Below are positions 1 to 27,667 of a stretch of 64,000 nt of DNA, piece after piece (position 1 is the stretch's first letter; each line of letters starts with the position of its first letter). The position numbers and the translations under genes are program-made. The DNA lies in the IMG/VR virus record IMGVR_UViG_3300027301_000002; one strand, given 5' to 3'. Under the pieces are notes generated by a model, which was given only the letters and a program-made list of their open reading frames with translations, did not search any database and was not told where the DNA came from. The stretch comes from a virus. Lineage: Duplodnaviria; Heunggongvirae; Uroviricota; Caudoviricetes.

Positions 1-285
1 GAAACTTCCACCTACTTTCTCTGGTGCTCCTTCCAAAGATGTGAGGGAGTTGTTGGAGCAAAAGAAATGCCCACCTACTTTCTTTGGTGCTCCTTCCAAG
101 GATGTGAGGGAGTTGTTGGAGCAATAGAAATGCCCACCCACTTCCATTGGTGCTCCTTCCAAAGATGTGAGAGAGTTGTTGGTGCAATAGAACTCACCCT
201 TTACTATCACATCTTCGAGAAAATCTGGCAATCGGTCTAGGTGCAAACTCCTAAGATCGACATCTTCTTGAATCACTTTTGGCAT
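1..285 (-). CDS. LRR-like 22-residue repeat protein, paralog 1 (truncated by window edge)
   Basis: Minus-strand ORF starting at CAT 283-285 (MPKVIQEDVDLRSL...). Same repeat units (NNSLTSLEGAP.KVGG.F.C) and same N-terminus as the four downstream paralogs. Confidence 0.6.
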   Translation of the reverse strand, partial: MPKVIQEDVDLRSLHLDRLPDFLEDVIVKGEFYCTNNSLTSLEGAPMEVGGHFYCSNNSLTSLEGAPKKVGGHFFCSNNSLTSLEGAPEKVGGSF

Positions 286-308
286 ACAATACTATAGCTT
301 AGGGCGTC
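286..308 (-). repeat. conserved intergenic element upstream of LRR paralog (copy 1)
   Basis: acaatactatagcttagggcgtc... is near-identical to copies at 936-958 and 1337-1358. In gene sense it reads ..GACGCCCTAA(G/T)CTATAGTATTGT then ATG. Confidence 0.6.
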
Positions 309-935
309 TTATTCTTCAAGGATATAAACATACTCTTTGATCTTAGATACTTTTCTAATTTCCTCTTCTGTGAAATAGATTCCTTTTGCAAAAGAGATCC
401 AAAGATTTCCACCAATCTCTTTAGGTAGGCCTTCTAAGGAAGTGAGAGAGTTGTAGCACGAGAAATCACCGCCTACTTTCTCTGGAGCACCTTTCAGGGA
501 AGCCAGAGAGTTGTTGTAGCAATAGAAATCACCACCTACTTCCATTGGTGACCCTTCTAGAGAAGTGAGAGGGTTTTGGTCACAAAAGAAATCGCCTTCT
601 ACTTTCTCTGGAGCACCTTCCAAGGAAGTGAGAGAGTTGTTGTAGCAATGGAAACTGCCTCCTACTTTCTCTGGTGCTCCTTTCAGGGAAGTCAGAGAGT
701 TGTTGTAGCAATGGAAATAACGTCCTACTTCCTTTGGCGCCCCTTTCAGAGAAGTGAGGGAGTTGTTGGTGCAAGAGAAATGACCTTCTACTTTCTCTGG
801 CGCCCCTTCCAAGGATGTGAGGGAGTTGTTGTAGCAAAGGAAATTACCCTTCACTATCACATCTTCCAAGAAATCTGGCAATCGGTCTAGGTACAAAGCA
901 CTAAGATCGACGTTTTCTTGAATCACTTTGATCAT
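309..935 (-). CDS. LRR-like 22-residue repeat protein, paralog 2
   Basis: 208 aa ORF with about 7 tandem units of a 22-aa motif (F.CYNNSLTSLEGAPEKVGG.F). N-terminus MIKVIQENVDLS is shared with the paralogs. Confidence 0.75.
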   Translation of the reverse strand: MIKVIQENVDLSALYLDRLPDFLEDVIVKGNFLCYNNSLTSLEGAPEKVEGHFSCTNNSLTSLKGAPKEVGRYFHCYNNSLTSLKGAPEKVGGSFHCYNNSLTSLEGAPEKVEGDFFCDQNPLTSLEGSPMEVGGDFYCYNNSLASLKGAPEKVGGDFSCYNSLTSLEGLPKEIGGNLWISFAKGIYFTEEEIRKVSKIKEYVYILEE

Positions 936-958
936 ACAATACTATAGATTAGGGCGTC
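936..958 (-). repeat. conserved intergenic element (copy 2)
   Basis: acaatactatagattagggcgtc; identical to copy 1 except one base. Confidence 0.6.
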
Positions 959-1336
959 TTATTCTTCAATGATATAAACTCTCCCTTTGATCTTGGATAC
1001 TTTTCTGATTTCCTCTTCTGTGAAATGGATCCCTTTTGCAAAAGAGATCCAAAGAATTCTACCAATCTCTTTAGGTAAACCTTCTAAAGATGTAAGTTTG
1101 TTGTCGTGGCAAAAGAAATTACCACCTACTTTCTCCGGTGCTCCTTCTAAGGATGTGAAAGAGTTGTAGGGGCAATAGAAATTACCACCTACTTTCTTTG
1201 GAGCCCCTTCTAAGGATGTGAGAGAGTTGTTGCCGCAAAAGAAATCACCCTTCACTATCACATCTTCCAAGAAATCTGGTAGTTTCTCGAGGTACAAATC
1301 ACTAAGATCGACATCTCCTTGGATCACTTTGATCAT
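959..1336 (-). CDS. LRR-like 22-residue repeat protein, paralog 3
   Basis: 125 aa with the same N-terminus (MIKVIQGDVDLS) and 3-4 repeat units. Confidence 0.7.
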   Translation of the reverse strand: MIKVIQGDVDLSDLYLEKLPDFLEDVIVKGDFFCGNNSLTSLEGAPKKVGGNFYCPYNSFTSLEGAPEKVGGNFFCHDNKLTSLEGLPKEIGRILWISFAKGIHFTEEEIRKVSKIKGRVYIIEE

Positions 1337-1358
1337 ACAATACTATAGCTTAGGGCGT
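1337..1358 (-). repeat. conserved intergenic element (copy 3)
   Basis: acaatactatagcttagggcgt directly upstream (gene sense) of the 959..1336 start codon. Confidence 0.55.
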
Positions 1359-1371
1359 AGTCGATCTCAAC

Positions 1372-1872
1372 TTATACATTGATGATTCTGCCTTTAATAT
1401 TTGACACTTTTCTAATTTCCTCCTTCGTGAAATAGATCCCTTTAGCAGAAGAGATATAAAGATCTTCACCAATCTTTTTAGGTAATCCTTCTAGTGAAAT
1501 GAGAGGATTGTAAATACAACTGAAATTTCCTCCTACTTCCTCTGGAGCACCTTCTAAGGAAGTGAGAGAGTTATAAGAGCAATCAAAATATCCATATACT
1601 TTGGCTGGAGCTCCATTTAGGGTCTTGAGACTGTTATATGTACAGTTGTAATTTCCACCTACTTTCTCTGGGGCTCCTTCTAAGGATGTGAGGGAGTTGT
1701 TGTAGCAATAGAAACCACGACCTACTTTCTCTGGAGCACCTTCTAGAGAGGATAGGAAGTTGAAAGCGCAATGGAACATGCCATGTACAACCATAACCTC
1801 TTTCATGAAGTCTGGTATTTTAGTGATGTATAATTTACTAACATTAACACTTCCATGAATTTCTTTCGACAT
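1372..1872 (-). CDS. LRR-like 22-residue repeat protein, paralog 4
   Basis: 166 aa with repeat units (YNSLTSLEGAPEKVGG, YNSLKTLNGAPAKVYG). Same architecture; C-terminus KGIYFTKEEIRKVSNIKG is conserved. Confidence 0.7.
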   Translation of the reverse strand: MSKEIHGSVNVSKLYITKIPDFMKEVMVVHGMFHCAFNFLSSLEGAPEKVGRGFYCYNNSLTSLEGAPEKVGGNYNCTYNSLKTLNGAPAKVYGYFDCSYNSLTSLEGAPEEVGGNFSCIYNPLISLEGLPKKIGEDLYISSAKGIYFTKEEIRKVSNIKGRIINV

Positions 1873-1887
1873 ATAAAAATATTCGGA

Positions 1888-2517
1888 TTACCGGTCCTTA
1901 ATATATTTAACAAACCCTCGGATTTTCGACCGTTTCCTAATTTCTGTTTCTGGGAAAAATTCTTTCAATTTCAAAGGAATATAAAAATCTTCGCCAATTT
2001 CTGATGGTATGCCCTCTAATGAAACCAGAGGATTGTCAATGCATGAAAATGAATATTTTACTATTCTCGGTGCACCTTTCAAAGAGGTGAGATTGTTGTT
2101 ATAGCAATAGAAATCCCCACCTACTCTCTTAGGAGCTCCCTCTAGTGTAGAAAGTTTATTATCATTGCAATAGAAAATCCCATCTACTTCATCGGGGGCT
2201 CCTTCTAATGACACGAGTGAGTTAATACCACAATCGTAATCTGTCCCTACTTCTATTGGACCTCCTTCTAGAGTAGTGAGAGAGTTGCAAGAGCAGTCAA
2301 AGGATCCTTTTACTTTCTCGGGGCCTCCTTTTAATGATTTAAGCCTATTTGAATAACAATCAAATGTTTGTACTACTCTTGGGCTATTCTCTAATGTATA
2401 AAGATAATTTTCTATACATGAAAACATCCCATTGACTACAGCACCATTGAGAAATTCCGGCAATTTAAAAAGAACCAATTCATCAAGAATTACATTGCCG
2501 TTAATAACCTTCTCCAT
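1888..2517 (-). CDS. LRR-like 22-residue repeat protein, paralog 5 (more divergent)
   Basis: 209 aa with units such as CNSLTTLEGGPIEVG, INSLVSLEGAPDEVDG and NNNLTSLKGAPRIV. Same conserved C-terminal tail motif. Confidence 0.7.
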   Translation of the reverse strand: MEKVINGNVILDELVLFKLPEFLNGAVVNGMFSCIENYLYTLENSPRVVQTFDCYSNRLKSLKGGPEKVKGSFDCSCNSLTTLEGGPIEVGTDYDCGINSLVSLEGAPDEVDGIFYCNDNKLSTLEGAPKRVGGDFYCYNNNLTSLKGAPRIVKYSFSCIDNPLVSLEGIPSEIGEDFYIPLKLKEFFPETEIRKRSKIRGFVKYIKDR

Positions 2518-2547: not shown

Positions 2548-2883
2548 TCAAGCGTTATATTCGTCATTCCATCGTTTGATTTGTGACTCTCGAAAGATAT
2601 TAGTACTTTTGACTAAGTTTAGGAACTGAGGCCAATTCTCCTTTGGTCTTTTGCTCTGTGCTAAATAGTCTACTGCTTTTGCTAATACGTATTCGTGTGC
2701 AGTTGGTTCGGGTGGAATAACGGCTGGATCGTGGTCGTACCACTTATACCCACAATTGCTACACTGACCTTTTGGTTCGCCCATCGAATCACAAATGAAT
2801 GGATCTTCTACGTAGTTCTTACAATTTGTCTTCATTGTGTTGCTTGGGCTTTTCCCAAAAGACAATAAAGTCTTCCGCGGCAT
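2548..2883 (-). CDS. hypothetical protein (Cys-containing)
   Basis: 111 aa ORF in the minus block; no recognisable motif. The true start may be the internal Met (MKTNCK). Confidence 0.45.
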   Translation of the reverse strand: MPRKTLLSFGKSPSNTMKTNCKNYVEDPFICDSMGEPKGQCSNCGYKWYDHDPAVIPPEPTAHEYVLAKAVDYLAQSKRPKENWPQFLNLVKSTNIFRESQIKRWNDEYNA

Positions 2884-3022
2884 CTACCCCATCTTGAAAT
2901 TTATCCCAATACTCTGCACCATATTCTTTTTCATTCTTTTCGACATAAACGGCAACCATCCGTTCGATCAAATGGAAAAAATGGTTCTTTTTAAATTTAC
3001 TGTCTAAAGTGCTGGACTCCAT
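2819..3022 (-). CDS. hypothetical protein
   Basis: 67 aa ORF; overlaps the next gene by 65 nt, so one of the two starts is uncertain. Confidence 0.35.
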   Translation of the reverse strand: MESSTLDSKFKKNHFFHLIERMVAVYVEKNEKEYGAEYWDKFQDGVDAAEDFIVFWEKPKQHNEDKL

Positions 3023-3027: not shown

Positions 3028-3885
3028 TTACTTGATCATTTTTTTGATTTTCTCGAATGCCTCATTTTGGCGAGGAATAATTTCAGTCTCGTAAACCTTC
3101 GCAAATTCTTCGGAATTTTTAAAGTAGTACACATTATCAAAAGAAACCATTCCAAGGTTCTCCCCATCACGGGTGACCTTATATTTCTCGCTCTGGATGA
3201 AGTCAACGATATATTGTTTATACTTTTCAACTGGCGCCCGGTTTTGTTTGCCTTTGATTTGCACAATGGTCTTTGAGGATGGTGGGGAGAGTTCCATAGT
3301 AACGTGAGGATTATTACCTCGATCCCATAGGCTGATGATTGAAGTTGGCTTGACTTTGTACGATTCATTTTTCGCACAGTGGCCCATTGACTCTCCCTCA
3401 TATTGACACACCTTTGCGGTAAGAGCACCGATGATCTTATGTCCGTTTTCAAACACATGGATCACCTTATAGTCGACACCCTCGACCAATTGATTCTTAT
3501 CGACAGACGCCCCGGAGTTAGCCATCTGCTCGTCCCAGACTTCAATCTCATTGCAGTAGATATCTTCTGGAGTCTTCTTGTAGAGCTTCGACAAATATTT
3601 TTCATCTTTGGTCAAGAGGAAGTCGCACACATGAAGAAGGAAATCAATGCGACCATTATCATATACCACGACATAAGCATTCTTTTTCCAATCCTCGTCG
3701 CCTTTCGCTGGATTGTATTTACGTACAATGTTTTGCAATTCATGTCGGCACATTTCGCCGGAACTTTCGAAGAAGCGCTTCTCCGCCTTGACCAGCCATT
3801 GAGTGATCACTTCATTGTCAATGCCTTTGATTTTGGTGACTTTATTAACTGCTTCGATGATTGGCTCGATTGAGATAAGATTCAT
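3028..3885 (-). CDS. hypothetical protein
   Basis: 285 aa ORF with good coding composition; no motif recognised. Confidence 0.55.
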   Translation of the reverse strand: MNLISIEPIIEAVNKVTKIKGIDNEVITQWLVKAEKRFFESSGEMCRHELQNIVRKYNPAKGDEDWKKNAYVVVYDNGRIDFLLHVCDFLLTKDEKYLSKLYKKTPEDIYCNEIEVWDEQMANSGASVDKNQLVEGVDYKVIHVFENGHKIIGALTAKVCQYEGESMGHCAKNESYKVKPTSIISLWDRGNNPHVTMELSPPSSKTIVQIKGKQNRAPVEKYKQYIVDFIQSEKYKVTRDGENLGMVSFDNVYYFKNSEEFAKVYETEIIPRQNEAFEKIKKMIK

Positions 3886-6331: not shown

Positions 6332-6403
6332 TGGTAGCCACGGTCGGACTCGAACCGACACTCTACGGATTTTAAGTCCGTTGCCTCTGCCATTGGACTA
6401 CGT
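6332..6403 (-). tRNA. tRNA with anticodon UAA (Leu UUR decoding) but class I (short variable arm), A73, CCA encoded
   Basis: Minus strand: GGCCACG-UA-GUCC..-A-ACGGA-CUUAAAA-UCCGU-AGAGU-GUCGG-UUCGAGU-CCGAC-CGUGGCU-A-CCA. Confidence 0.65.
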
Positions 6404-6425
6404 GGCCATGTTTCGTGTGATAGAT

Positions 6426-9564: not shown

Positions 9565-10590
9565 TTATTTGTTTGAGTCGTAATCGAGATTGATGATCTT
9601 GAACGAACCTTTGCTGTGTCGAACTACTACACCTTCAAAGGGTTTGCCATCGATTTGATTGATTCCTTTTTGGTAGAAGTTAATCATATCTTCGGATAGC
9701 AACGGCCTCACAGAGTGTTCAAAGTCAACAGTGTAATTGTCGTTTACAAACGGCACATGAGGAATTTGTAATACAGCCGCCACGTTCGGGGAGTAATCAG
9801 CGTCGCCTTCCTTTTCATACTTCAGGGTATTAAGATTGAAGACACTGAATACGGCAAAGTCCAAGGGACCTTTGCTGTGTGGGTTCTTGCTGAAATTTTG
9901 GATATTGCCTCCATAGATTTCACCTCGAAGAGCAAGTGATACGTCGTTCCGTTTGCAATACTCAAGAAGCTTCTCGAGAATATTGTATTTCTTCACGATC
10001 TTGGTATAGTTGTTATTAGTTTCTGGTTTGATTTCTAGATTGCGACTAGTAACACCAGTAGACCATTCTCCGGTCGACGGATCTTTGCGTGCGTAGTAAG
10101 TAGCACTTTGCCCATCAATCTTCAGGGTGACATCAACCTTTTCACCATACGGGAGAAACCCGATAAGGTTCTGGAATCGTTCTTCGTCAGTCTTCACCAG
10201 ACTATACGGCAGATTCCCTTTAGCATCCAGAGAGGTTGGAGCAGGTGGGTCGTACTTATATACCCCAATATGGGAACTAATCTCAGTACCAACTTCGACA
10301 TTTTGAAGATCGAATAACGAGTCTACTTCGGTAAGTCCCATGATAATACCAAACGACCATTCGCCTCGAAGCTTGATAGCTTTGACTCGCGACGACTTTT
10401 TCTTAAAGATTTCAGCCCAGGGCTTATCTGGAAGAACAGTATCGGGCTGGATAAAGACTACACGATCACCTACCTTATATTTGTCTTTAAGAGTGATGCA
10501 TTCATATCCTAGAACTCCAACGAGATCCAACGAATCTGCATTGGGATGATGTTTGACAGCAGCGATGGTTTCAATAGAGGCGAGCTTCAT
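9565..10590 (-). CDS. ATP-dependent RNA ligase-like nucleotidyltransferase with N-terminal tRNA-binding (Myf/Trbp111-type OB) domain
   Basis: The N-terminus AAVKHHPNADSLDLVGVLGYECITLKDKYKVGDRVVFIQPDTVLPD matches the tRNA-binding OB domain found at the MetRS C-terminus and in CsaA. It is followed by the ligase motif I KIDGQS (KxDG). A separate DNA ligase lies at 25869..27005. The start is placed at the internal Met (MKLASIE) because the 5' extension has poor composition. Confidence 0.6.
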   Translation of the reverse strand: MKLASIETIAAVKHHPNADSLDLVGVLGYECITLKDKYKVGDRVVFIQPDTVLPDKPWAEIFKKKSSRVKAIKLRGEWSFGIIMGLTEVDSLFDLQNVEVGTEISSHIGVYKYDPPAPTSLDAKGNLPYSLVKTDEERFQNLIGFLPYGEKVDVTLKIDGQSATYYARKDPSTGEWSTGVTSRNLEIKPETNNNYTKIVKKYNILEKLLEYCKRNDVSLALRGEIYGGNIQNFSKNPHSKGPLDFAVFSVFNLNTLKYEKEGDADYSPNVAAVLQIPHVPFVNDNYTVDFEHSVRPLLSEDMINFYQKGINQIDGKPFEGVVVRHSKGSFKIINLDYDSNK

Positions 10591-10630
10591 GTAGTTAATA
10601 TAGCTCGAGGTGTGATGTGTATCAACTATT

Positions 10631-10981
10631 TTAGCATTTAAGCCAGCGCCATCTTTTATGTCGAACTGCCCATTTTCGTGGGATCCATGACAAAATTTTA
10701 TTGACAAACGACATGACAACTTTGTTGTATTTATACTCAGTTGCATCCCCTTGTTTCCATACGACGATATGGTCGGGCACCACTGTTGGTCTGTTATTGC
10801 CTATGCGATAGACTCGATTCCAATATACAATATCTCTATATGGAGACACCCAGCCTTGGAACCTATCATATCGTGCTGTTAATGTGTCGTAGCTTCTTCT
10901 GGAGAAACTTCGTTCGGCATAGTGCCCATCTTCATGATAGACATATATCGTTGCATTTCCGAAATCATTAAGGGGATTCAT
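10631..10981 (-). CDS. hypothetical protein
   Basis: 116 aa, Trp/Arg-rich. Confidence 0.5.
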   Translation of the reverse strand: MNPLNDFGNATIYVYHEDGHYAERSFSRRSYDTLTARYDRFQGWVSPYRDIVYWNRVYRIGNNRPTVVPDHIVVWKQGDATEYKYNKVVMSFVNKILSWIPRKWAVRHKRWRWLKC

Positions 10982-22002: not shown

Positions 22003-22079
22003 GGGGGTGCATGTACTAAGGCTAGCGAGACTGATTTGCAATCAGACTGTTGTGGGTTCGATTCCCACCATCTCCACCA
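22003..22079 (+). tRNA. tRNA-Ala (UGC) with G3:U70
   Basis: Acceptor GGGGGUG/CAUCUCC contains the G3:U70 pair. Anticodon loop UUUGCAA, T-arm GUGGG-UUCGAUU-CCCAC, A73-CCA. Confidence 0.6.
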
Positions 22080-22083
22080 ATTT

Positions 22084-22176
22084 GGATGATTAAGCAGACA
22101 AGCGTGCTGCATCTGTTTGGAAGACAGATTGATCTAGTGATCCTAGGTTGGGGTGCAAGTCCTCATTCATCCGCCA
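22084..22176 (+). tRNA. tRNA-Ser (GGA), class II, T-loop UGCAAGU
   Basis: D-stem GCAG/CUGC, anticodon arm UCUGU-UUGGAAG-ACAGA, long extra arm, T-arm GGGG-UGCAAGU-CCUC, G73-CCA. Confidence 0.6.
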
Positions 22177-22182
22177 CTTTCT

Positions 22183-22258
22183 GGTGTTGTATTTTAATCG
22201 GCAAATTGCTATCCTGTCACGATAGATGATGCGGGTTCGAATCCCGTCAGCACCGCCA
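22183..22258 (+). tRNA. tRNA-Asp (GUC)
   Basis: Acceptor GGUGUUG/CAGCACC, anticodon arm CUAUC-CUGUCAC-GAUAG, T-arm GCGGG-UUCGAAU-CCCGU, G73-CCA. Confidence 0.7.
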
Positions 22259-22264
22259 ATTTAT

Positions 22265-22357
22265 GGGTAGCTAAACAGACAAGCGCGCTGTAACCGCCTT
22301 GAAAGCGGATTGATCTAGTGATCCTAGGTTGGGGTGCAAGTCCTCAGTTACCCGCCA
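22265..22357 (+). tRNA. tRNA-Ser (UGA), class II, T-loop UGCAAGU
   Basis: Paralog of 22084..22176; anticodon loop CUUGAAA; G73-CCA. Confidence 0.6.
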
Positions 22358-22501
22358 ATTAAGCATCAACTATCCACACTTTATGAGGAAATCCTCACAA
22401 GCTATCCCTTATATGGCTCTGGTCAAACATGGGCTTGTGCATGTTTGTAGATGATAACAGTGCTCACTGGAAAATAGCTAACTCTTAGTGGAGCACATTT
22501 C

Positions 22502-22575
22502 GGTCTTTTAGTTTAATGGTAAAACGACGCACTTGTAATGCGTTGATTCCGGTTCGACTCCGGACAGGACCTCCA
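22502..22575 (+). tRNA. tRNA-Thr (UGU)
   Basis: D-arm GUUU-AAUGGUA-AAAC, anticodon arm ACGCA-CUUGUAA-UGCGU, T-arm UCCGG-UUCGACU-CCGGA, CCA encoded. Confidence 0.7.
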
Positions 22576-22584
22576 TTTCTTTTT

Positions 22585-22660
22585 ACGTGCTAATGTCCCA
22601 AGGCAGGCGAGTTGGACTCCAAATCCGACTGGGTCAGTTCGATTCTGACAGCACGTGCCA
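22585..22660 (+). tRNA. tRNA-Trp (CCA)
   Basis: Perfect acceptor ACGUGCU/AGCACGU, anticodon arm UUGGA-CUCCAAA-UCCGA, T-arm GUCAG-UUCGAUU-CUGAC, G73-CCA. Confidence 0.7.
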
Positions 22661-22665
22661 ATTTC

Positions 22666-22739
22666 GGCCTATTAGTTTAGTGGTAAAACAATTTACTCGT
22701 AATGAATAGTCCCCAGCTCAATTCTGGGATAGGCCTCCA
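22666..22739 (+). tRNA. tRNA-Thr (CGU), atypical T-loop CUCAAUU
   Basis: Perfect acceptor GGCCUAU/AUAGGCC, D-arm GUUU-AGUGGUA-AAAC, anticodon arm AUUUA-CUCGUAA-UGAAU, CCA encoded. Confidence 0.65.
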
Positions 22740-22745
22740 TCTTAT

Positions 22746-22822
22746 GCGGTTGTAGCTCAATTTGGTAGAGCGCATCCTTGCCAAGGATATTGTCGCAGGT
22801 TCGAATCCTGTCAGCCGCACCA
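22746..22822 (+). tRNA. tRNA-Gly (GCC)
   Basis: Acceptor GCGGUUG/CAGCCGC, D-arm GCUC-AAUUUGGUA-GAGC, anticodon loop UUGCCAA, T-arm CAGG-UUCGAAU-CCUG, A73-CCA. Confidence 0.75.
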
Positions 22823-22824
22823 AT

Positions 22825-22917
22825 GGGTAGTTAAGCAGACAAGCGTACTGCAACCGTCTCGAAAGCGGATTGATCTAGCGAACCTAGGTTGGGGTGCAAG
22901 TCCTCAGCTACCCGCCA
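22825..22917 (+). tRNA. tRNA-Ser (CGA), class II, T-loop UGCAAGU
   Basis: Third member of the Ser paralog family; anticodon loop CUCGAAA; G73-CCA. Confidence 0.6.
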
Positions 22918-22925
22918 TTTTATAT

Positions 22926-22999
22926 GGTCCTTTAGCATAATGGTAATGCATCGGATTTTGATTCCGACTATGATGGTTCAATTCCATCAGGGACTTCCA
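22926..22999 (+). tRNA. tRNA-Gln (UUG)
   Basis: D-arm GCAU-AAUGGUA-AUGC, anticodon arm UCGGA-UUUUGAU-UCCGA, T-arm GAUGG-UUCAAUU-CCAUC, CCA encoded. Confidence 0.7.
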
Positions 23000-23009
23000 A
23001 TTTCTTTTG

Positions 23010-23084
23010 GCTCGAATAGCACAATGGTGAGTGTATTTCCTTGGTATGGAAGGGATGTGGGTTCGATTCCCACTTTGAGCCCCA
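23010..23084 (+). tRNA. tRNA-Thr (GGU)
   Basis: Acceptor GCUCGAA/UUUGAGC, anticodon arm UUUCC-UUGGUAU-GGAAG, T-arm GUGGG-UUCGAUU-CCCAC, C73-CCA. Confidence 0.65.
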
Positions 23085-23087
23085 CAC

Positions 23088-23159
23088 GCCTCTGTAATTC
23101 AAAAGTAGAATGGTTGTTTCATAAGCAACACGGTGAAGGTGCAAGTCCTTCCGGAGGTA
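23088..23159 (+). tRNA. tRNA-Met (CAU), T-loop UGCAAGU, no encoded CCA
   Basis: Acceptor GCCUCUG/CGGAGGU, D-arm AUUC-AAAAGUA-GAAU, anticodon arm GUUGU-UUCAUAA-GCAAC, T-arm GAAGG-UGCAAGU-CCUUC, A73 followed by CUA. Confidence 0.65.
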
Positions 23160-23168
23160 CTAATTTAT

Positions 23169-23837
23169 ATGCCAAACACTGCAATTTTATTCACAGGAAA
23201 CGTACACGGTGACACCATTGATGTTCTAATTGAACAGACCAAAAATCAGACAAATAAAATAGCATCAATATGGGAAAATGAATCACCTGAATATGTCGAC
23301 AAATTAAAAAACAACAATTTTAAAATCATTTACAATAGTGTAAAACAACAAGAAATATATAAACCACAGTTTATTACTGTACATAATGGGTTGAAGTATC
23401 TTAAAGAAAACGGATATGAATATGTATTAAGGACTCGTTTTGATATACTATGTCAAGATTATGATAGATATTTAGAGATACTGGCGAAGTCGTATCGCGA
23501 AAAGCTAACAGCTATCGCTGGCATAGAGACATCTACCACTTATTTTTTAGATATTATTATAGGTGGGAAAATTGATGAGATGCTTAAATTTTTCGCATTG
23601 CAGCCAAACTATGATGTTAGGTACTATGAAAAATTTTTAATAGAAAATTACTCAAATAAAACAAATCTAACTAAAGAAGAAATAAGAAATATATTGAATT
23701 TCTCGTTAAGTGATTGTGTCAATAACAACATTGAATTCATATGGTACAGGCCAATTTCGTGGAAGTCGCAAACGATCACGTGGCCAGACATGAGAGTAAT
23801 TAATGAGTATTGCAAAAATAATTTTATCTGGATGTAG
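23169..23837 (+). CDS. hypothetical protein (possibly sugar/LPS-related transferase)
   Basis: Start moved to the ATG at 23169 because the ORF-track start at 23133 lies inside the tRNA at 23088..23159. The stop codon overlaps the start of the next tRNA. Confidence 0.5.
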   Translation: MPNTAILFTGNVHGDTIDVLIEQTKNQTNKIASIWENESPEYVDKLKNNNFKIIYNSVKQQEIYKPQFITVHNGLKYLKENGYEYVLRTRFDILCQDYDRYLEILAKSYREKLTAIAGIETSTTYFLDIIIGGKIDEMLKFFALQPNYDVRYYEKFLIENYSNKTNLTKEEIRNILNFSLSDCVNNNIEFIWYRPISWKSQTITWPDMRVINEYCKNNFIWM

Positions 23838-23904
23838 TTCAGCTTGGTAGAACATTTGATTTGGGATCAAAAGGTCGTGGGTTCGAATCCCACCATCCAG
23901 ACCA
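23828..23904 (+). tRNA. tRNA-Pro (UGG)
   Basis: Acceptor CUGGAUG/CAUCCAG, D-arm GUUC-AGCUUGGUA-GAAC, anticodon loop UUUGGGA (G37), T-arm GUGGG-UUCGAAU-CCCAC, A73-CCA. Confidence 0.75.
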
Positions 23905-23961
23905 ATTTATAAATAAACAAGTTGATAACAACACAACCACGTGTTAATATTAACTACACAT

Positions 23962-24036
23962 TGCGGGATAGAGCAGTAGTAGCTCAACTGGCTCATAACC
24001 AGGAGGTCGGTGGTGCAAGTCCATCTCCCGCAACCA
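23962..24036 (+). tRNA. second tRNA with CAU anticodon (Met/fMet/Ile-lysidine), T-loop UGCAAGU
   Basis: Acceptor UGCGGGA/UCCCGCA, D-arm GAGC-AGUAGUA-GCUC, anticodon loop CUCAUAA, T-arm GGUGG-UGCAAGU-CCAUC, A73-CCA. Confidence 0.6.
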
Positions 24037-24050
24037 ATTTCAACATATGT

Positions 24051-24146
24051 GCTCCTGTAGCTCAATTGGTAGAGCGGAAAGCTTATACCTTTCGTATGCC
24101 CCAGATTAGGGCGCGGTTGTCGGTTCGAATCCGGCCAGGAGTACCA
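24051..24146 (+). tRNA. atypical 96-nt tRNA-like gene: canonical D- and T-arms, anticodon-arm-like hairpin with UAU, plus a long extra hairpin
   Basis: Acceptor GCUCCUG/CAGGAGU, D-arm GCUC-AAUUGGUA-GAGC, hairpin GAAAG-CUUAUAC-CUUUC, second hairpin GCCC-CAGAUUA-GGGC, T-arm GUCGG-UUCGAAU-CCGGC, A73-CCA. Identity unresolved. Confidence 0.45.
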
Positions 24147-24164
24147 ATTTCAACGAAAACAAAA

Positions 24165-24488
24165 ATGACTAAAAAAGATCGCAACAAACCCACATATGAG
24201 TGGATTGATGTAAATGCTGGTGAAGCATATTACTCTTTATATGCATATTGTTTAGACAACGCCGATCAACTAAACGGCCATCCTGGAATTCAAATCGGGT
24301 GTTATCATTACGCCATCAGCAGAAAGATGACACCAAAAAAACCATTCAAAGTACATGCTAGGAAAATGAATCAAGGGCATATATGGAGAGGCTGGGGTAG
24401 ATCTTACATTAAAGTAGATCGCGACATTCAGGTAGATAACAAAAAAAGATTCTGGCCTACACACAATCAAATTTCAATAGAAGTTTAA
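24165..24488 (+). CDS. hypothetical protein
   Basis: The ORF-track 23922..24488 runs through two tRNA genes. The plausible start is the ATG at 24165 (MTKKDRNKPTYEW...). Confidence 0.45.
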   Translation: MTKKDRNKPTYEWIDVNAGEAYYSLYAYCLDNADQLNGHPGIQIGCYHYAISRKMTPKKPFKVHARKMNQGHIWRGWGRSYIKVDRDIQVDNKKRFWPTHNQISIEV

Positions 24489-24497
24489 CCTGCACAT

Positions 24498-24572
24498 GCC
24501 TCTGTAATTCAATGGTAGAATAACAGACTTTTAATCTGAAGGTTATGGGTTCGAGTCCCATCGGAGGCACCA
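24498..24572 (+). tRNA. tRNA-Lys (UUU)
   Basis: Acceptor GCCUCUG/CGGAGGC, D-arm AUUC-AAUGGUA-GAAU, anticodon loop CUUUUAA, T-arm AUGGG-UUCGAGU-CCCAU, A73-CCA. Confidence 0.75.
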
Positions 24573-24641
24573 ATTTATACAGTCAACGCTCTGATATATT
24601 GCTATAGTATATAAGTAATAATTTAATTTAATTTTTAATAT

Positions 24642-24716
24642 TCCTCAGTGGCAGACTAGCAATGCACCCGACTGTTAATCGGGATTATGAAGGAGCGTAA
24701 CCTTCCTGAGGAGCCA
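24642..24716 (+). tRNA. tRNA-Asn (GUU), atypical T-loop AGCGUAA
   Basis: Perfect acceptor UCCUCAG/CUGAGGA, anticodon arm CCCGA-CUGUUAA-UCGGG, T-arm GAAGG-AGCGUAA-CCUUC, G73-CCA. Confidence 0.6.
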
Positions 24717-24780
24717 ATTTATAACTGCGATCAAAACACAAAGCAGTTGCTAATAACAACACCCGATGTGAATATATAAC

Positions 24781-25029
24781 ATGAAGAAAACTCAACGCCA
24801 ATGTGCAGACGACTTAGTCAACTACATCATTCGTAAAGAACTTATTCACATCAAGTCAGAATATCTTCTTCGCATTGAAAATAGTGAATGGATGGCATGT
24901 GGCACAGAGGATAAAACCAGAATTGAAGAATTGCAACGGGACATTCAAAGTGCTCGAGAATATATTAGTGTACTGGATGAGTACATCACTAAATTTGAAA
25001 AAGTAGAAACCTCGCCATTGTTCAATTAA
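24781..25029 (+). CDS. hypothetical protein
   Basis: 82 aa. Confidence 0.45.
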   Translation: MKKTQRQCADDLVNYIIRKELIHIKSEYLLRIENSEWMACGTEDKTRIEELQRDIQSAREYISVLDEYITKFEKVETSPLFN

Positions 25030-25317
25030 ATGGAACAACTAATAGAACCATTCTGCTACATTGCAAATGTCAAAGTTACAGATAAAAATGGCAAACAAGG
25101 GAATAGACCGTTAATTAGATTTCAAGCACCTGACTCGGGATTAAATTTTAATACTTATTACGTTGCGTGCGCATGTGCTTCTGTATACAACATGTTCCTT
25201 GATTATATTGCCGAGAAAGATCAAATAGAATTTGAAAAACAATTCAAAGAGATATTCAATAAGCTTATCGATGAAGGTCTAATAGAAATCATGAAAGACA
25301 AACCAATTTCGGGTTGA
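25030..25317 (+). CDS. hypothetical protein
   Basis: 95 aa; the stop codon overlaps the tRNA-Phe 5' end. Confidence 0.45.
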   Translation: MEQLIEPFCYIANVKVTDKNGKQGNRPLIRFQAPDSGLNFNTYYVACACASVYNMFLDYIAEKDQIEFEKQFKEIFNKLIDEGLIEIMKDKPISG

Positions 25318-25386
25318 TAGCAATGATGGTTCATGCGTCTGTCTGAAGAACAGATCATCTCGGTTCGAATCCGAGTCAACCCACCA
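25311..25386 (+). tRNA. tRNA-Phe (GAA)
   Basis: Perfect acceptor GGGUUGA/UCAACCC, anticodon arm UCUGU-CUGAAGA-ACAGA, T-arm CUCGG-UUCGAAU-CCGAG, A73-CCA. Confidence 0.7.
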
Positions 25387-25391
25387 CTTAT

Positions 25392-25466
25392 GTCGCCGTC
25401 GTCTAATGGTTAGGACGGAGGATTTTCATTCCTCAAATGGGGGTTCGATTCCCCTCGGCGATACCA
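25392..25466 (+). tRNA. tRNA-Glu (UUC)
   Basis: Acceptor GUCGCCG/CGGCGAU, D-arm GUC-UAAUGGUUAG-GAC, anticodon arm GAGGA-UUUUCAU-UCCUC, T-arm GGGGG-UUCGAUU-CCCCU, A73-CCA. Confidence 0.75.
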
Positions 25467-25476
25467 ATTTCAATAC

Positions 25477-25571
25477 GGAGTGTAAACCAAACAGGCGCGT
25501 TGGAACTGTTTGCTAAACAGATTGTGGTTTTGCTAAAAAGCCATCTGGTTCGAGTCCAGTGCACTCCGCCA
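25477..25571 (+). tRNA. tRNA-Ser (GCU), class II
   Basis: Acceptor GGAGUGU/GCACUCC, D-stem CCAA/UUGG, anticodon arm ACUGU-UUGCUAA-ACAGA, long extra arm, T-loop UUCGAGU, G73-CCA. Confidence 0.6.
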
Positions 25572-25577
25572 CTTTAT

Positions 25578-25652
25578 TGTCTCGTAGCTCATCGGTAGAG
25601 CACTTCCCTGATAAGGAATAGGTAGCTGGTTCGATTCCAGTCGGGACAACCA
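25578..25652 (+). tRNA. tRNA-Ile (GAU)
   Basis: Acceptor UGUCUCG/CGGGACA, D-arm GCUC-AUCGGUA-GAGC, anticodon loop CUGAUAA, T-arm GCUGG-UUCGAUU-CCAGU, A73-CCA. Confidence 0.7.
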
Positions 25653-25674
25653 ATTTCAATAACCAATACTAAAA

Positions 25675-25902
25675 ATGAAAAGATATCTTTTGATAGCAGG
25701 CCACGACTATTATCCTGGTGCGGGTACAAGCAATTGGGTTGATTCGTATGATTCATACGAAGAGGCTCTCAATATGGTTGAAACAATGGAAGAAAATAAC
25801 TACGGTAGGTGTGGTTATACTATTGGAGATATGCCATGTGATTGGTATGAAATAGTAGATTTAAACGAATGGAGTCCTCGCAATTCAATTTCAACATATT
25901 AA
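25675..25902 (+). CDS. hypothetical protein
   Basis: 75 aa. Confidence 0.4.
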   Translation: MKRYLLIAGHDYYPGAGTSNWVDSYDSYEEALNMVETMEENNYGRCGYTIGDMPCDWYEIVDLNEWSPRNSISTY

Positions 25903-27005
25903 ATCCAATGCAAACACTTTACAAATACAGTACCAAAGGCGCACCTCTTCAGTGGAGCATTGAAGTAGAAGGTGACAAGTATCGAACGATTGAAGGGCAA
26001 GTAGGAGGCAAGCTGACTACTTCGCAATGGACTATTTGTTTCGCAAAGAATGTTGGTAAGGCAAACGCAACTACGGCAGAAGAACAAGCTCTGAAAAAGG
26101 CTGAATCTATCTATCGCAAGAAAAAGGACGCCGGATTCAGCGAGACATTGGAATCATCTGGTGCGAATTTCTTTGAACCGATGCTTGCTCATAAATGGGA
26201 TCAGCACCCTCTAGCACCTGGTACACCATTGGCTCTTCAGCCCAAACTAGACGGACATAGATGCATTGCGTATCTTAAAGATGGTAAAGTATATCTCCAA
26301 AGTCGAAAGGGCAAACAGATCACTTCATGCACCCATATTGAAAATGCTCTTGAAGATTTATTCAAAGAAAATCAATCTTTTATTCTAGATGGTGAGCTTT
26401 ACAATCATACCATTCCGTTTGAAAAGATTTCGGGGTTAGTTCGTCAAATTGAACACACTGCGGAATGCAAAGATATTCAATATCATGTTTATGATCTTGT
26501 TGATCTAAATAACCGACAACTAACTTTCGACGAAAGAAATTGGCAATTGGTTACAAAGCAATTACGGCTTTGTAATAATGAGCATATAAACATGGTTACT
26601 ACATTGTTCGTAAATGGCAGCGATGCTATTGCGGAGTATGAAAGTGAGTGTGTGGAAGATGGATATGAAGGTATCATGATTCGTGATACTACATCTATCT
26701 ATGAGAATAAAAGATCGAAAGGACTTCTGAAACTCAAACAATTCCAAGACGAAGAATTCAATATTGTCGAAATCAAAGAAGGTCAAGGTAATCGCACCGG
26801 ACTAGCCACAGAAGCAGTATTGGCTCTTGAAGACGGTAGAGCTTTTTCTACTGGAGTTATTGGCAACGAAGAATATGCACGTGGCTTATTTAATGACCGC
26901 GAAAAAGTCAAAGGGATGCTAGCCACAGTAAAATACCAAGGAAAGACTGCACAGGGGATTCCTAGATTTGGTAAAATGAAAATCGTAAGATATGAAGGAT
27001 TCTAA
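25869..27005 (+). CDS. ATP-dependent DNA ligase (T7-like, KxDGxR)
   Basis: Motif I PKLDGHRCIAYL (KxDGxR) with downstream nucleotidyltransferase motifs and a C-terminal OB-like region. The start may be the downstream ATG at 25908. Confidence 0.8.
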   Translation: MESSQFNFNILNPMQTLYKYSTKGAPLQWSIEVEGDKYRTIEGQVGGKLTTSQWTICFAKNVGKANATTAEEQALKKAESIYRKKKDAGFSETLESSGANFFEPMLAHKWDQHPLAPGTPLALQPKLDGHRCIAYLKDGKVYLQSRKGKQITSCTHIENALEDLFKENQSFILDGELYNHTIPFEKISGLVRQIEHTAECKDIQYHVYDLVDLNNRQLTFDERNWQLVTKQLRLCNNEHINMVTTLFVNGSDAIAEYESECVEDGYEGIMIRDTTSIYENKRSKGLLKLKQFQDEEFNIVEIKEGQGNRTGLATEAVLALEDGRAFSTGVIGNEEYARGLFNDREKVKGMLATVKYQGKTAQGIPRFGKMKIVRYEGF

Positions 27006-27007
27006 GT

Positions 27008-27400: not shown

Positions 27401-27424
27401 CAGCCCCGTTGTATAATTGTTTAC

Positions 27425-27664: not shown

Positions 27665-27667
27665 AAT

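What the first reader, a model, noticed from the sequence alone, without database searches (positions are those of the whole stretch)
1..2517. Tandem array of at least five paralogous genes made of 22-residue LRR-type repeats, each with a conserved 23-nt upstream element
Five consecutive minus-strand genes, the first truncated by the window edge, encode proteins built almost entirely of tandem 22-aa units. The consensus is roughly F-x-C-x-N-N-S-L-T-S-L-E-G-A-P-E-K-V-G-G-x-F, a leucine-rich-repeat-like periodicity reminiscent of BspA-type or FNIP-type repeats. They share conserved N-termini (MIKVIQ.DVDLS.LYL..LPDFLEDVIVKG) and C-termini (..ISFAKGI.FTEEEIRKVSKIK). Repeat number varies (about 3 to 8). 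Copies 1-4 carry an identical 23-nt intergenic element (ACAATACTATAG(C/A)TTAGGGCGT) before the start codon, which may be a promoter or simply recent duplication. Copy 5 is more divergent. The array pattern suggests rapid evolution, such as a host-interaction, receptor-binding or anti-defence decoy function, and the array may continue upstream of the window.
Basis: seen in the sequence. Interest (0 to 1): 0.6.

Follow-up and report, generated by a model that had tools for sequence, protein, structure and literature searches.

The report
Hypervariable LRR gene array in phage
An uncultured phage of about 195 kb carries a tandem array of 9-13 small leucine-rich-repeat genes, five of them in this window. 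Each core copy has its own early-type promoter, sequence variation is concentrated on the predicted binding face, and the array lies next to a PcfJ-like protein that is fused to the same repeat type in other organisms. Together this suggests a set of interchangeable host-protein binders, which as far as I could find has not been described for phages.

Summary
The five minus-strand genes are real, but three details need correcting. The repeat is 21 aa (63 nt), not 22. The conserved spacer occurs three times in the window, not four. The repeats are not BspA- or FNIP-like: they are a Cys-ladder variant of the short bacterial LRR found in IpaH/SspH/YopM and InlJ. The AF2 model has pLDDT 97.8.

Metagenome contigs of the same ~195-kb phage show the array continues to 9-13 genes. 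A fusion junction supported by reads and repeat-number variants indicate ongoing recombination. Variation is concentrated on four positions per repeat (21, 2, 4, 5), which by LRR convention face the concave surface (pN 0.38 vs pS 0.04; scaffold 0.07 vs 0.35).

The "23-nt element" is the spacer and -10 part of a phage-wide sigma70-like promoter class, TTGA-N9-ACACC-N5-TATAGT. There are about 25 such sites, all in the non-structural 36 kb, and two precede tRNA genes. The -10 usually ends 5 nt before the ATG, which suggests leaderless mRNAs.

Best model: early cytoplasmic LRR targeting modules that work with a PcfJ-like effector. The function itself is inferred.

The parts
1..285 (-). LRR gene, copy 1. 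It is 5'-complete and truncated at its 3' end by the window edge. The full-length gene in contigs of the same phage is 167 aa with 5 repeats.
   Evidence: Translation. It is identical to the first 95 aa of the 167-aa gene at L002/L004 11052-11555.
286..308 (-). 23-nt intergenic spacer that holds the -10 box TATAGT (296-291). The -35 box TTGAAG (319-314) lies in the last codons of copy 2. The -10 box ends 5 nt before the ATG, and there is no Shine-Dalgarno sequence.
   Evidence: The PWM built from non-array promoters scores it 17.0 bits.
309..935 (-). LRR gene, copy 2: 208 aa, 7 repeats of 21 aa, with an N-cap and a C-cap.
   Evidence: AF2 pLDDT 97.8, pTM 0.91. Foldseek matches SspH1/IpaH LRR domains.
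936..958 (-). 23-nt spacer and promoter: -35 TTGAAG at 969-964, -10 TATAGT at 946-941.
   Evidence: PWM score 16.8 bits. The RNA fold is no more stable than shuffles (z +1.2).
959..1336 (-). LRR gene, copy 3: 125 aa, 3 repeats.
   Evidence: The identical protein was found on 24 contigs that were read, and the index lists it in 76 blocks of the collection.
1337..1371 (-). 35-nt spacer containing the same element: -35 TTGAGA at 1370-1365, -10 TATAGT at 1347-1342.
   Evidence: 10 of 12 consensus positions. PWM score 18.4 bits.
1372..1872 (-). LRR gene, copy 4: 166 aa, 5 repeats, divergent. It is preceded by a 15-nt spacer with no promoter match, so it is probably co-transcribed with copy 5.
1888..2517 (-). 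LRR gene, copy 5: 209 aa, 7 repeats, the most divergent copy and the first gene of the array.
   Evidence: It has its own sigma70-like promoter, TTGATG-17-TATAAT, at 2551-2523 (10 of 12), with 5 nt between the -10 box and the ATG.
2548..3022 (-). Two small ORFs (111 aa or a shorter 95-aa form, and 67 aa) between the PcfJ-like gene and the array. No family matches above noise.
   Evidence: The 67-aa ORF has a 64-aa counterpart in the related contig L022. The 111-aa ORF is not conserved in synteny.
3028..3885 (-). PcfJ-like protein, 285 aa, the proposed constant partner of the LRR paralogues. It has its own promoter of the same class at 3937-3909.

Best explanation
The window holds the first five genes of a 9-13-gene tandem family of small cytoplasmic LRR solenoids in an uncultured phage of about 195 kb. 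Each protein has an N-cap, 3-7 repeats and a C-cap.

The repeat is 21 residues, F-x-C-x-x-N-S-L-T-S-L-E-G-A-P-E-K-V-G-G-x. It is a Cys-ladder relative of the IpaH/SspH/YopM 'LPX' repeat. The scaffold is under purifying selection. The four positions that by LRR convention face the concave beta-sheet (21, 2, 4, 5) are hypervariable and rich in Tyr, Ser, His, Asp and Asn. Each paralogue therefore presents a different binding surface.

Unequal recombination between repeats and between genes keeps changing gene number and repeat number.

Each core gene carries its own copy of the phage's early-type sigma70-like promoter. The -35 box lies in the previous gene's last codons and the -10 box lies in the 23-nt spacer, 5 nt before the ATG. 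This probably gives leaderless mRNAs.

The LRR proteins most likely act with the PcfJ-like protein encoded just upstream. The model is one constant module, possibly a GNAT-fold acyltransferase, served by many exchangeable LRR modules that select targets. The targets would be host proteins during early takeover or counter-defence, by analogy with LRR + NEL in IpaH/SspH effectors.

Shown: gene structure, fold, variability pattern, array size and variants, promoter-class membership, and PcfJ-LRR fusion and synteny. Inferred: early timing, leaderless initiation, physical interaction with PcfJ, any enzymatic activity, and host targets.
For: Fold and family:
- AF2 pLDDT 97.8.
- Foldseek matches the LRR domains of SspH1, IpaH1.4/7.8/2.5 and YopM.
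- phmmer matches InlJ and SspH2, and the alignment extends into the N-cap.

Array size:
- 9 genes in L002.
- 13 genes from L004 + L006.
- All core genes are separated by the 23-nt spacer.

Variability:
- Entropy is 2.2-3.2 bits at positions 21, 2, 4 and 5, and at most 1.9 bits elsewhere.
- NG86 over 35 unique units gives pN 0.382 / pS 0.044 at the variable codons and pN 0.074 / pS 0.348 at scaffold codons.

Recombination:
- The same gene has 3, 4, 5 or 7 repeats in four contigs, and the last gene is 170 or 212 aa.
- The 9-gene haplotype is a fusion of gene 8 and gene 12 across only 81 identical nt. That is shorter than the assembler's k-mer of 141, so reads must span the junction.
- Blocks at 97-99% identity occur between genes 5 and 9.

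Promoter:
- EM motif search finds the motif upstream of 19 ORFs.
- A PWM built without the array sites gives 27 hits above 12 bits, against 1.5 in shuffles.
- About 25 of these hits look genuine. All lie below 36 kb and point in the gene direction.
- Two precede tRNA genes, and the array spacers score 16.8-18.4 bits.
- The spacer is more conserved (0.97) than the flanking coding DNA (0.88-0.91) across 12 junctions.

PcfJ link:
- PcfJ is the only recurrent non-LRR Pfam domain in 81 long relatives, in 8 of 81.
- My HMM finds 9 fusions among 143 top relatives.
- The window protein aligns with the fusion protein up to the point where the LRR N-cap begins.
- A second PcfJ-like paralogue sits beside the second LRR subfamily.
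- Related phages keep PcfJ-like followed by LRR arrays.
- PcfJ fusions with ankyrin repeats and with another LRR-like repeat exist.
- Some DGR target genes in CPR bacteria carry a PcfJ-like motif upstream of the variable region (PMC5758913).

GNAT-like fold:
Against: - There is no expression, interaction or activity data.
- LRR cap subtype does not track PcfJ clade cleanly.
- Other phages with arrays of this LRR type (L016, L017) and Vibrio phage TDDLMA have no PcfJ-like gene within the flanks fetched.
- Only about 6% of top LRR relatives are PcfJ fusions.
- The synteny evidence comes from relatives of one phage lineage, so it is not independent.
- The pN/pS contrast comes from paralogous repeats subject to gene conversion, and pS at the variable codons rests on few synonymous sites.
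- Repeat-number variants in JGI contigs could still be assembly effects, because the k-mer size used there is unknown.
- A -10 box 5 nt from the ATG is 1 nt closer than the canonical spacing for starting transcription at the A.
Confidence: 0.5

Rival explanations
1. The LRR paralogues are stand-alone stoichiometric binders that act without the PcfJ-like protein. They would be inhibitors, decoys or sponges for host proteins, for example nucleases or defence sensors, in the way ribonuclease inhibitor (an LRR protein) blocks RNases. The PcfJ adjacency would then be only conserved gene order.
For: - Arrays of the same LRR type occur without a nearby PcfJ-like gene in the 735-kb phage LR756501 (L016), in a 343-kb contig (L017) and as a single gene in Vibrio phage TDDLMA.
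- Most relatives are not PcfJ fusions.
- The hypervariable concave face and early-type promoters fit this model equally well.
- The phage invests in RNA ligase and 29 tRNA genes, which is consistent with conflict over RNA damage. This last point is speculative.
Against: - PcfJ is the only recurrent fusion partner of this LRR type.
- A second PcfJ-like paralogue sits next to the second LRR subfamily in the same phage population.
- The PcfJ domain also pairs with ankyrin repeats and with DGR variable regions.
Confidence: 0.25
2. The proteins are effectors aimed at a eukaryote, such as a grazer or the animal or protist host of the bacterium. This would resemble phage ankyrins in sponge symbionts, or bacterial IpaH/YopM effectors.
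For: - The closest solved structures are type III effectors that target eukaryotic proteins.
- Similar LRRs are abundant in giant viruses of protists.
- A PcfJ-LRR fusion lies beside a giant ankyrin protein in a MAG.
Against: - No signal peptide or secretion domain is visible.
- The phage encodes no delivery route that I could see.
- The early-type promoter class points to action inside the infected bacterium.
Confidence: 0.07
3. The proteins are virion-associated host-recognition or adhesion accessories, as in the first reader's receptor-binding idea.
For: - LRRs can bind surface glycans and proteins.
- Variable repeat proteins are common in phage receptor-binding loci.
Against: - The genes are 125-212 aa, cap to cap, with no fibre, tail or anchoring domain.
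- They lie about 39 kb from the structural module (41-64 kb), among small early-type genes.
- They use the promoter class that is absent from the structural region.
Confidence: 0.05
4. The variability is produced by a programmed mutagenesis system, either a diversity-generating retroelement or a similar mechanism, rather than by ordinary mutation, recombination and selection.
For: - At the variable codons only the first two bases vary and the third is almost fixed (NNT, NNC, NNC, NNT), giving NNY-coded residues as in DGR targets.
- PcfJ-like domains occur in some DGR target genes.
Against: - Scaffold codons contain many adenines that do not vary, for example AAC at Asn6 in 35 of 35 units. The variable sites are not A-templated.
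- Scaffold synonymous sites differ between units, so the units are not copies of one template.
- No ORF of 200 aa or more in the 64 kb has a Y/F-x-DD reverse-transcriptase motif.
- Relatives use K, E, W and R at the same positions.
- The rest of the genome was not examined.
Confidence: 0.03

Closest known systems
LRR ('LPX') domains of the type III effectors IpaH, SspH1/2, SlrP and YopM
   Same: - These are the best structural and sequence matches.
- They share a short repeat with the ...N-x-L-T-S-L-P... core.
- The homologous N-terminal cap is 'L-x-x-LPD-x-L...' (alignment).
- From the published complexes, as I recall them, substrates bind the concave face.
- The LRR acts as the targeting arm of a separate catalytic module.
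   Different: - The unit is 21 residues rather than 20 or 22.
- It has E-G-A-P where LPX repeats have P-x-L-P, and Phe/Cys in place of Leu/Val in the core.
- There is no NEL ubiquitin-ligase domain and no secretion signal.
- The genes are phage-encoded, 125-212 aa, and occur in a tandem array.
- The candidate partner is a PcfJ-like domain, not NEL.
Internalin J (InlJ) cysteine-ladder LRR of Listeria
   Same: - It is the top PDB sequence hit (3bz5, E 4e-12).
- It has a 21-residue unit with Cys replacing the Leu at core position 6, which forms a Cys ladder.
   Different: InlJ is a large surface protein attached to the cell wall, with a signal peptide and further domains. The variable half of its repeat differs (L-D-V-x-x-L rather than L-E-G-A-P-x-x-V).
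Variable lymphocyte receptors of lampreys and hagfish, and clustered plant NLR LRR genes
   Same: - Diversity is focused on concave beta-strand residues of an otherwise constant LRR scaffold.
- Diversity is generated by shuffling LRR cassettes, unequal crossing-over or gene conversion.
- VLRs appear among the weaker Foldseek hits.
   Different: - There is no somatic assembly here. The repertoire is germline, about 10-16 genes, in a virus.
- The direction of the arms race is reversed, because the parasite holds the repertoire.
- This is a comparison of how it works, not a claim of membership.
Repeat-protein multigene families of giant viruses (LRR/FNIP, ankyrin, BTB) and LRR proteins annotated in uncultured phages
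   Same: - Viral genomes expand repeat-protein families.
- BFVD hits include Marseillevirus LCMAC102 (34% identity) and 'Leucine-rich repeat [uncultured Caudovirales phage]'.
- Four-gene tandem arrays of the same 21-aa type occur in a 735-kb phage and in a 343-kb contig.
   Different: - FNIP repeats (reported as LxxLxFGxxFNQxIxENVLPxx in PMC9525666, listed) are a different subtype, and no FNIP hit was found.
- The library searches found no description of a phage LRR array, of its variability pattern or of a PcfJ link.
PcfJ-like domain proteins (Pfam PF14284), including DGR target proteins of CPR bacteria
   Same: The neighbouring gene meets the Pfam threshold. The PcfJ-like domain lies N-terminal to a diversified binding module in DGR targets, as it does in the PcfJ-LRR and PcfJ-ankyrin fusions.
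   Different: - In this phage the two parts are separate genes, and the variable part is multiplied into an array.
- Diversification is by recombination and point change, not retro-homing.
- The function of PcfJ is unknown.

Membership tests
Leucine-rich repeat superfamily | Tandem units of 20-30 residues with the conserved segment LxxLxLxxN/CxL | tested here: met
   The unit is 21 aa: (V)-x-G-x-F-x-C-x-x-N-x-L-T-S-L. F1, C3, N6, L8 and L11 are nearly invariant in 61 units.
Leucine-rich repeat superfamily | Curved solenoid with a parallel beta-sheet on the concave side | tested here: met
   AF2 pLDDT 97.8 with short strands every 21 residues. Foldseek probability 1.0 and TM 0.6-0.68 to SspH1/IpaH LRR crystal structures.
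Pfam LRR_4 (PF12799) | Score at or above the gathering threshold (27 bits) | tested here: not met
   Scores are 14.7-17.4 bits for three copies and no hit for the 125-aa copy. Longer relatives do pass.
   None of these families appears in the Pfam scan at E <= 1.
NEL-type E3 ligase effectors (IpaH/SspH/SlrP) | C-terminal NEL catalytic domain after the LRR | tested here: not met
   The proteins end 35 residues after the last repeat. NCBIfam SspH2 scores 40.6 bits against a cut-off of 1243, and only over the LRR.
NEL-type E3 ligase effectors (IpaH/SspH/SlrP) | LPX repeat of 20 or 22 residues (LTSLPxLPxxLxxLxVxxNx) | tested here: inconclusive
   It is alignable and is the best structural match. 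However, the unit is 21 residues, with EGAP where LPX repeats have PxLP and a Phe/Cys core.
Internalins (InlJ class) | 21-residue LRR with a Cys ladder, plus a signal peptide and a cell-wall anchor | tested here: not met
   The repeat type matches. The phage proteins have no signal peptide or anchor (sequences). NCBIfam InlJ scores 20-24 bits against a cut-off of 1700.
Diversity-generating retroelement target | Nearby reverse transcriptase with a template repeat, and variation only at template adenines | tested here: not met
   No RT-motif ORF in the 64 kb. Invariant adenines are common in the scaffold, and synonymous differences exist between units. The rest of the genome was not searched.
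Known anti-phage defence or candidate systems (PADLOC) | Match to a PADLOC model | tested here: not met
   No hit for the four LRR proteins or for four neighbouring proteins at E <= 0.1.
PcfJ-like (PF14284), neighbouring gene 3028-3885 | Score at or above the gathering threshold (25 bits) | tested here: met
   28.2 bits over residues 134-226. 38% identity to the PcfJ domain of P0127.
GNAT acyl-CoA N-acyltransferase fold, for the PcfJ-like domain | GNAT beta-alpha core with the Q/RxxGxG/A CoA-binding loop between beta4 and alpha3 | tested here: inconclusive
Sigma70-type promoter, for the spacer element | -35 TTGACA-like and -10 TATAAT-like hexamers 16-18 nt apart, with transcription starting downstream | tested here: inconclusive
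   Consensus matches are 9-10 of 12 with 17-nt spacing at all three spacers. They belong to a window-wide motif class. Transcription starts cannot be tested with these tools.

The most novel reading that the evidence does not exclude
Phages of this lineage, and possibly many large phages, carry a germline, recombination-diversified repertoire of LRR 'targeting subunits'. These plug into a single PcfJ-like effector enzyme, possibly a GNAT-fold acyltransferase. Early in infection the phage could then modify or neutralise many different, polymorphic host proteins. This would be a viral counterpart of modular immune receptors, and a functional assignment for the orphan PcfJ domain.
Probability: 0.3. 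Interest if true: 0.8.

Novelty: new variant of a known kind. Interest (0 to 1): 0.62.

Why it matters
- LRR proteins in phages are annotated but essentially unstudied. This repeat type is very common: 15,255 clusters at 50% identity match at E <= 1e-3.
- The array shows three features together: a constant scaffold with four hypervariable positions per repeat on the predicted binding face, recombination supported by reads, and a separate early-type promoter for each core copy. That is the signature of an arms-race binder repertoire, held here by the virus.
- The recurrent fusion and adjacency with the PcfJ-like domain gives a testable handle on a domain of unknown function. That domain is widespread on plasmids and phages and also occurs in DGR targets.
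- The small, very regular 21-residue scaffold could also serve as a natural template for designed binders.
- The promoter class, with its fixed 5-nt distance to the ATG, suggests widespread leaderless early mRNAs in a large phage. That would itself be worth testing.

Tried and rejected
- **Relatives in cultured phages.** Megablast of the first 6 kb against cultured phages found nothing. tblastn of the PcfJ-like protein against phages also found nothing.
- **IMG/VR.** A scan with the 125-aa protein and a scan with the spacer pattern both found nothing.
- **Metagenome scan with the spacer.** It gave only 5 short contigs, which were useful only for variant genes.
- **GTDB genomes.** The scan gave one weak Planctomycetaceae hit and was not informative.
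- **First promoter pattern.** My first regular expression was no better than shuffles. I replaced it with EM and a PWM.
- **RNA structure in the spacer.** Rejected: z = +1.2.
- **DGR-type mutagenesis.** Considered because the variable codons are NNY, then rejected.
- **Variation between samples.** Alleles across samples are almost identical, with 3 allele pairs and 9 differences. Population-level point variation therefore could not be assessed.
- **Co-variation of LRR cap subtype with PcfJ clade.** Not seen.
- **PcfJ domain architectures.** The profile search for PcfJ relatives returned only fragments.
- **Sequence-level link from PcfJ to GNAT or any PDB entry.** None found.
- **Literature.** No paper on phage LRR arrays or on PcfJ function turned up. 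Matsushima et al. 2021 (Arch Virol, LRRs in dsDNA viruses) is cited by PMC10945359 but did not turn up in the library search and was not read.
- **Host.** The host could not be identified. The nearest cultured relatives of one structural-region protein are Xanthomonas and Stenotrophomonas jumbo phages at 42-45% identity.

Full report
**1. The observation**

Five consecutive minus-strand ORFs occupy 1-285 (cut by the window edge), 309-935 (208 aa), 959-1336 (125 aa), 1372-1872 (166 aa) and 1888-2517 (209 aa). Tandem Repeats Finder reports 63-nt arrays in four of the five (none in copy 5), so the unit is 21 residues, not 22.

The copies share an N-terminal cap of about 30 residues and a C-terminal cap of about 35 residues. 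Copies 4 and 5 are more divergent.

The conserved spacer ACAATACTATAG(C/A)TTAGGGCGT occurs three times (286, 936, 1337), against none in every one of 100 shuffles. It precedes copies 1-3 only. Copy 4 has a different 15-nt spacer. No other LRR-like ORF exists in the remaining 61 kb. The plus-strand ORFs inside the array are mirror ORFs of the repeats.

**2. What the genes encode**

Pfam gives only sub-threshold LRR_4 matches and nothing for LRR_5/BspA, FNIP or DUF285. NCBIfam gives only matches far below cut-off, to the LRR parts of SspH2, InlJ and SlrP. PADLOC gives nothing.

Against PDB sequences the best hits are internalin J (4e-12), which has a 21-residue Cys-ladder LRR, and the LRR domains of SspH2, SspH1, IpaH7.8 and YopM. 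The SspH2 alignment extends into the N-cap.

An AlphaFold2 model of the 208-aa protein has pLDDT 97.8 and pTM 0.91, with short strands at 21-residue intervals and a C-terminal helix. Foldseek places it with SspH1, IpaH and YopM LRR crystal structures at TM 0.6-0.68. It also matches LRR proteins of giant viruses and of uncultured tailed phages.

The proteins are therefore complete, cap-to-cap LRR solenoids of a Cys-ladder, LPX-like subtype. They have no signal peptide and no further domain.

**3. The array beyond the window**

The 125-aa protein is encoded, residue for residue, on many metagenome contigs of 193-196 kb. Many of these contigs start or end inside the array.

- L002 carries the complete array as 9 genes: 209, 166, 125, 208, 167, 146, 125, 125 and 170 aa.
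- L004 joined to L006 gives 13 genes: 209, 166, 125, 208, 167, 146, 125, 167, 146, 188, 188, 125 and 170 aa.
- Every core gene is preceded by the 23-nt spacer.

The gene at position 8 has 3, 4, 5 or 7 repeats in four different contigs. The last gene is 170 or 212 aa.

The 9-gene form is a fusion of genes 8 and 12 across only 81 identical bases. That is shorter than the k-mer of 141 implied by the MEGAHIT contig name, so reads spanning the junction must exist. Blocks of 300 nt at 97-99% identity link genes 5 and 9.

A second LRR subfamily (N-terminus MKII..., C-cap ...FTEEQVRAVC...) appears on other contigs, including hybrids with core genes (L003, L012). Those hybrids could be real recombinants or assembly joins.

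Alleles of the same gene in different samples are nearly identical, so point variation within the population could not be judged.

**4. Where the variation sits**

Among 61 unique units, entropy is highest at positions 4 (3.2 bits), 21 (2.7), 2 (2.6) and 5 (2.2). All other positions are at or below 1.9 bits, and F1, C3, N6, L8, L11, G13 and P15 are almost invariant.

In the LRR core LxxLxLxxN these four positions are x3, x5, x7 and x8. By established LRR structure these are the residues exposed on the concave sheet, and in the published IpaH/SspH-substrate complexes (as I recall them) they form the binding face.

Among 35 unique core units, the variable codons have pN 0.382 and pS 0.044. Scaffold codons have pN 0.074 and pS 0.348. 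The nonsynonymous distance at the variable codons (0.53) is about equal to the scaffold synonymous distance (0.47).

The residues used are mostly Tyr, Ser, His, Asp, Asn, Phe, Pro and Thr. This pattern fits diversifying selection on a binding surface over a conserved scaffold. It is not a formal test, because the units are paralogous and exchange sequence.

A DGR-like process was considered because only the first two bases of the variable codons change. I rejected it for four reasons:
- Invariant adenines are common in the scaffold.
- Units differ at synonymous sites.
- No ORF with a reverse-transcriptase motif exists in the window.
- Relatives use Lys, Glu, Trp and Arg at the same positions.

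**5. The 23-nt element**

A sigma70-type scan places a -35 hexamer (TTGAAG or TTGAGA) in the last codons of the upstream copy, 17 nt from TATAGT in the spacer, at all three spacers.

An EM search of the regions upstream of 87 window ORFs found a shared motif, TTGAtt-N7-aCACC(C/A)-N5-TATAaTAT, before 19 of them.

A 30-column PWM built only from the 16 sites outside the array finds 27 sites above 12 bits, against 1.5 on average in shuffles:
- About 25 of these sites look genuine. All lie below 36 kb and point in the direction of the downstream gene.
- Two precede tRNA genes (23922, 27389), which argues for a transcription signal.
- The three array spacers score 16.8-18.4 bits.

Across 12 distinct junctions the spacer is more conserved (0.97) than the flanking coding DNA (0.88-0.91; third codon positions 0.83-0.91). 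The spacer RNA has no unusual structure.

In about half of the sites, including all array sites and copy 5, the -10 hexamer ends exactly 5 nt before the ATG, and no Shine-Dalgarno sequence is present. Leaderless or nearly leaderless mRNAs are the simplest reading, but this is an inference.

Genes of the structural region (41-64 kb) lack this motif and often carry TAAATA or TAAGTA just before the ATG. I therefore regard the array genes as members of the early or non-structural class. That too is inferred.

**6. The PcfJ link**

A full HMMER scan of 1.84 billion representatives with the 125-aa copy found 15,255 relatives at E <= 1e-3 and 1,388 at E <= 1e-30. Many are long proteins.

Among 81 relatives of 400-900 aa, the only recurrent non-LRR Pfam domain is PcfJ (PF14284), in 8 of 81. 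A domain HMM finds 9 fusions among the 143 new top hits.

The window encodes a stand-alone PcfJ-like protein (3028-3885; 28.2 bits against a cut-off of 25) immediately upstream of the array, with its own promoter of the same class. It aligns at 38% identity (E 8e-19) with the fusion protein P0127, up to the residue where that protein's LRR N-cap begins.

Further observations fit this link:
- Related phages whose PcfJ-like protein is 79% or 54% identical also have arrays of small LRR genes directly downstream (L022, L019-L021). This is one lineage, so it is not independent evidence.
- A second PcfJ-like paralogue (308 aa, 44% identity) lies beside the second LRR subfamily on L003.
- Other homologues join the PcfJ domain to ankyrin repeats (P0271) or to a different LRR-like repeat (P0270).
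- Wu et al. 2018 report a PcfJ-like motif upstream of the variable region in some DGR target genes of CPR bacteria (PMC5758913).

The domain thus recurs next to diversified binding modules.

Points against a strict partnership:
- Arrays of this LRR type in other large phages have no PcfJ-like gene within the flanks fetched.
- Cap subtype does not follow PcfJ clade.

**7. Most likely mechanism and rivals**

Best model, confidence about 0.5 overall. The array is an early-expressed, recombining repertoire of small cytoplasmic LRR binders whose concave faces differ. They work with the adjacent PcfJ-like protein as exchangeable targeting modules against host proteins.

My confidence differs between the parts:
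- Structural and evolutionary parts: about 0.9.
- Coupling to PcfJ: about 0.6.
- Host-takeover or counter-defence role: about 0.4.

Rivals:
- Stand-alone inhibitors or decoys (0.25).
- Effectors aimed at a eukaryote (0.07).
- Virion or receptor-binding accessories (0.05).
- Programmed mutagenesis (0.03).

**8. Comparison and novelty**

In how it works, the array resembles the LRR arm of IpaH/SspH effectors and the variable concave faces of VLRs and plant NLR clusters.

It is not a member of the NEL, internalin, BspA or FNIP families, and it does not reach the Pfam LRR_4 threshold.

LRR proteins in phages and giant viruses are already annotated, and four-gene arrays of the same type exist in other large phage genomes. 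I found no description of such arrays, of their variability pattern or of a PcfJ connection.

I rate it a new variant of a known kind, with interest 0.62.

Noticed in passing
window 6332-6407 and 22003-30348: There are 29 tRNA genes, 28 of them in one plus-strand cluster. Two of them (tRNA-Met at 23962 and tRNA-Gly at 27425) lie directly behind promoter-motif sites at 23922 and 27389.
   Followed up: partly
window 1-36000, about 25 sites (e.g. 29010+, 4522-, 7425-, 3937-, 12510-, 16016-, 19640-, 19675+): A phage-wide promoter-like motif, TTGAtt-N7-aCACC(C/A)-N5-TATAaT. In about half of the sites the -10 box ends exactly 5 nt before the ATG and there is no Shine-Dalgarno sequence. This suggests many leaderless early mRNAs. 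The conserved C-rich block in the spacer is unexplained.
   Followed up: partly
window 41000-64000 and scattered elsewhere (e.g. upstream of 52362-59834, 59860-63132, 63154-63705, 46434-49049): Twenty-one of 87 ORFs have TAAATA or TAAGTA within 20 nt of the ATG, where roughly one would be expected by my estimate. This includes the large structural-region genes. It looks like a T4-late-type promoter class. Only a few genes have AGGAGG-type ribosome-binding sites.
   Followed up: partly
window 52362-59834 and 59860-63132 (minus strand): Two very large ORFs of 2490 aa and 1090 aa. The 1090-aa ORF had no PHROG match. The 2490-aa ORF was not scanned.
   Followed up: no
window 45122-46375 (minus strand): A 417-aa protein matches PHROG 24687 ('glycosyltransferase', E 6e-154). 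Its only cultured relatives are the Xanthomonas jumbo phages XacN1 and Xoo-sp13 and the Stenotrophomonas phages CM1 and RAS14 (42-45% identity). This is the only clue to the lineage or host of this phage.
   Followed up: partly
L003 11052-12794; L012 68-1772: A second LRR subfamily (MKII... N-terminus, ...FTEEQVRAVC... C-cap, genes overlapping by 4 nt) and a second PcfJ-like paralogue. Hybrids between the two subfamilies are present. The L003 contig is about 31 kb shorter than L002, as expected if recombination or an assembly shortcut joined the two loci.
   Followed up: partly
L017 6685-10593: Four tandem LRR paralogues on a 343-kb phage-like contig all end in an acidic tail, ...GDLDD(I/V)GF. 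From memory, this resembles the C-terminal tip of bacterial SSB (DDDIPF).
   Followed up: no
L026 2285-9556 (MAG GCA_965319495.1): Three consecutive large genes (783, 870 and 760 aa) lie near a giant ankyrin-repeat protein. The 870-aa gene is the PcfJ-LRR fusion P0177. A 760-aa PcfJ-LRR fusion (P0178) has the same length as the third gene, but I did not check that they are the same protein. This may be an effector cluster in a bacterium.
   Followed up: no
window 9565-10746 (minus strand): An RNA ligase gene (PHROG 968, E 8e-52) lies about 7 kb from the array. Together with the large tRNA set, it hints at conflict with host enzymes that damage RNA.
   Followed up: no
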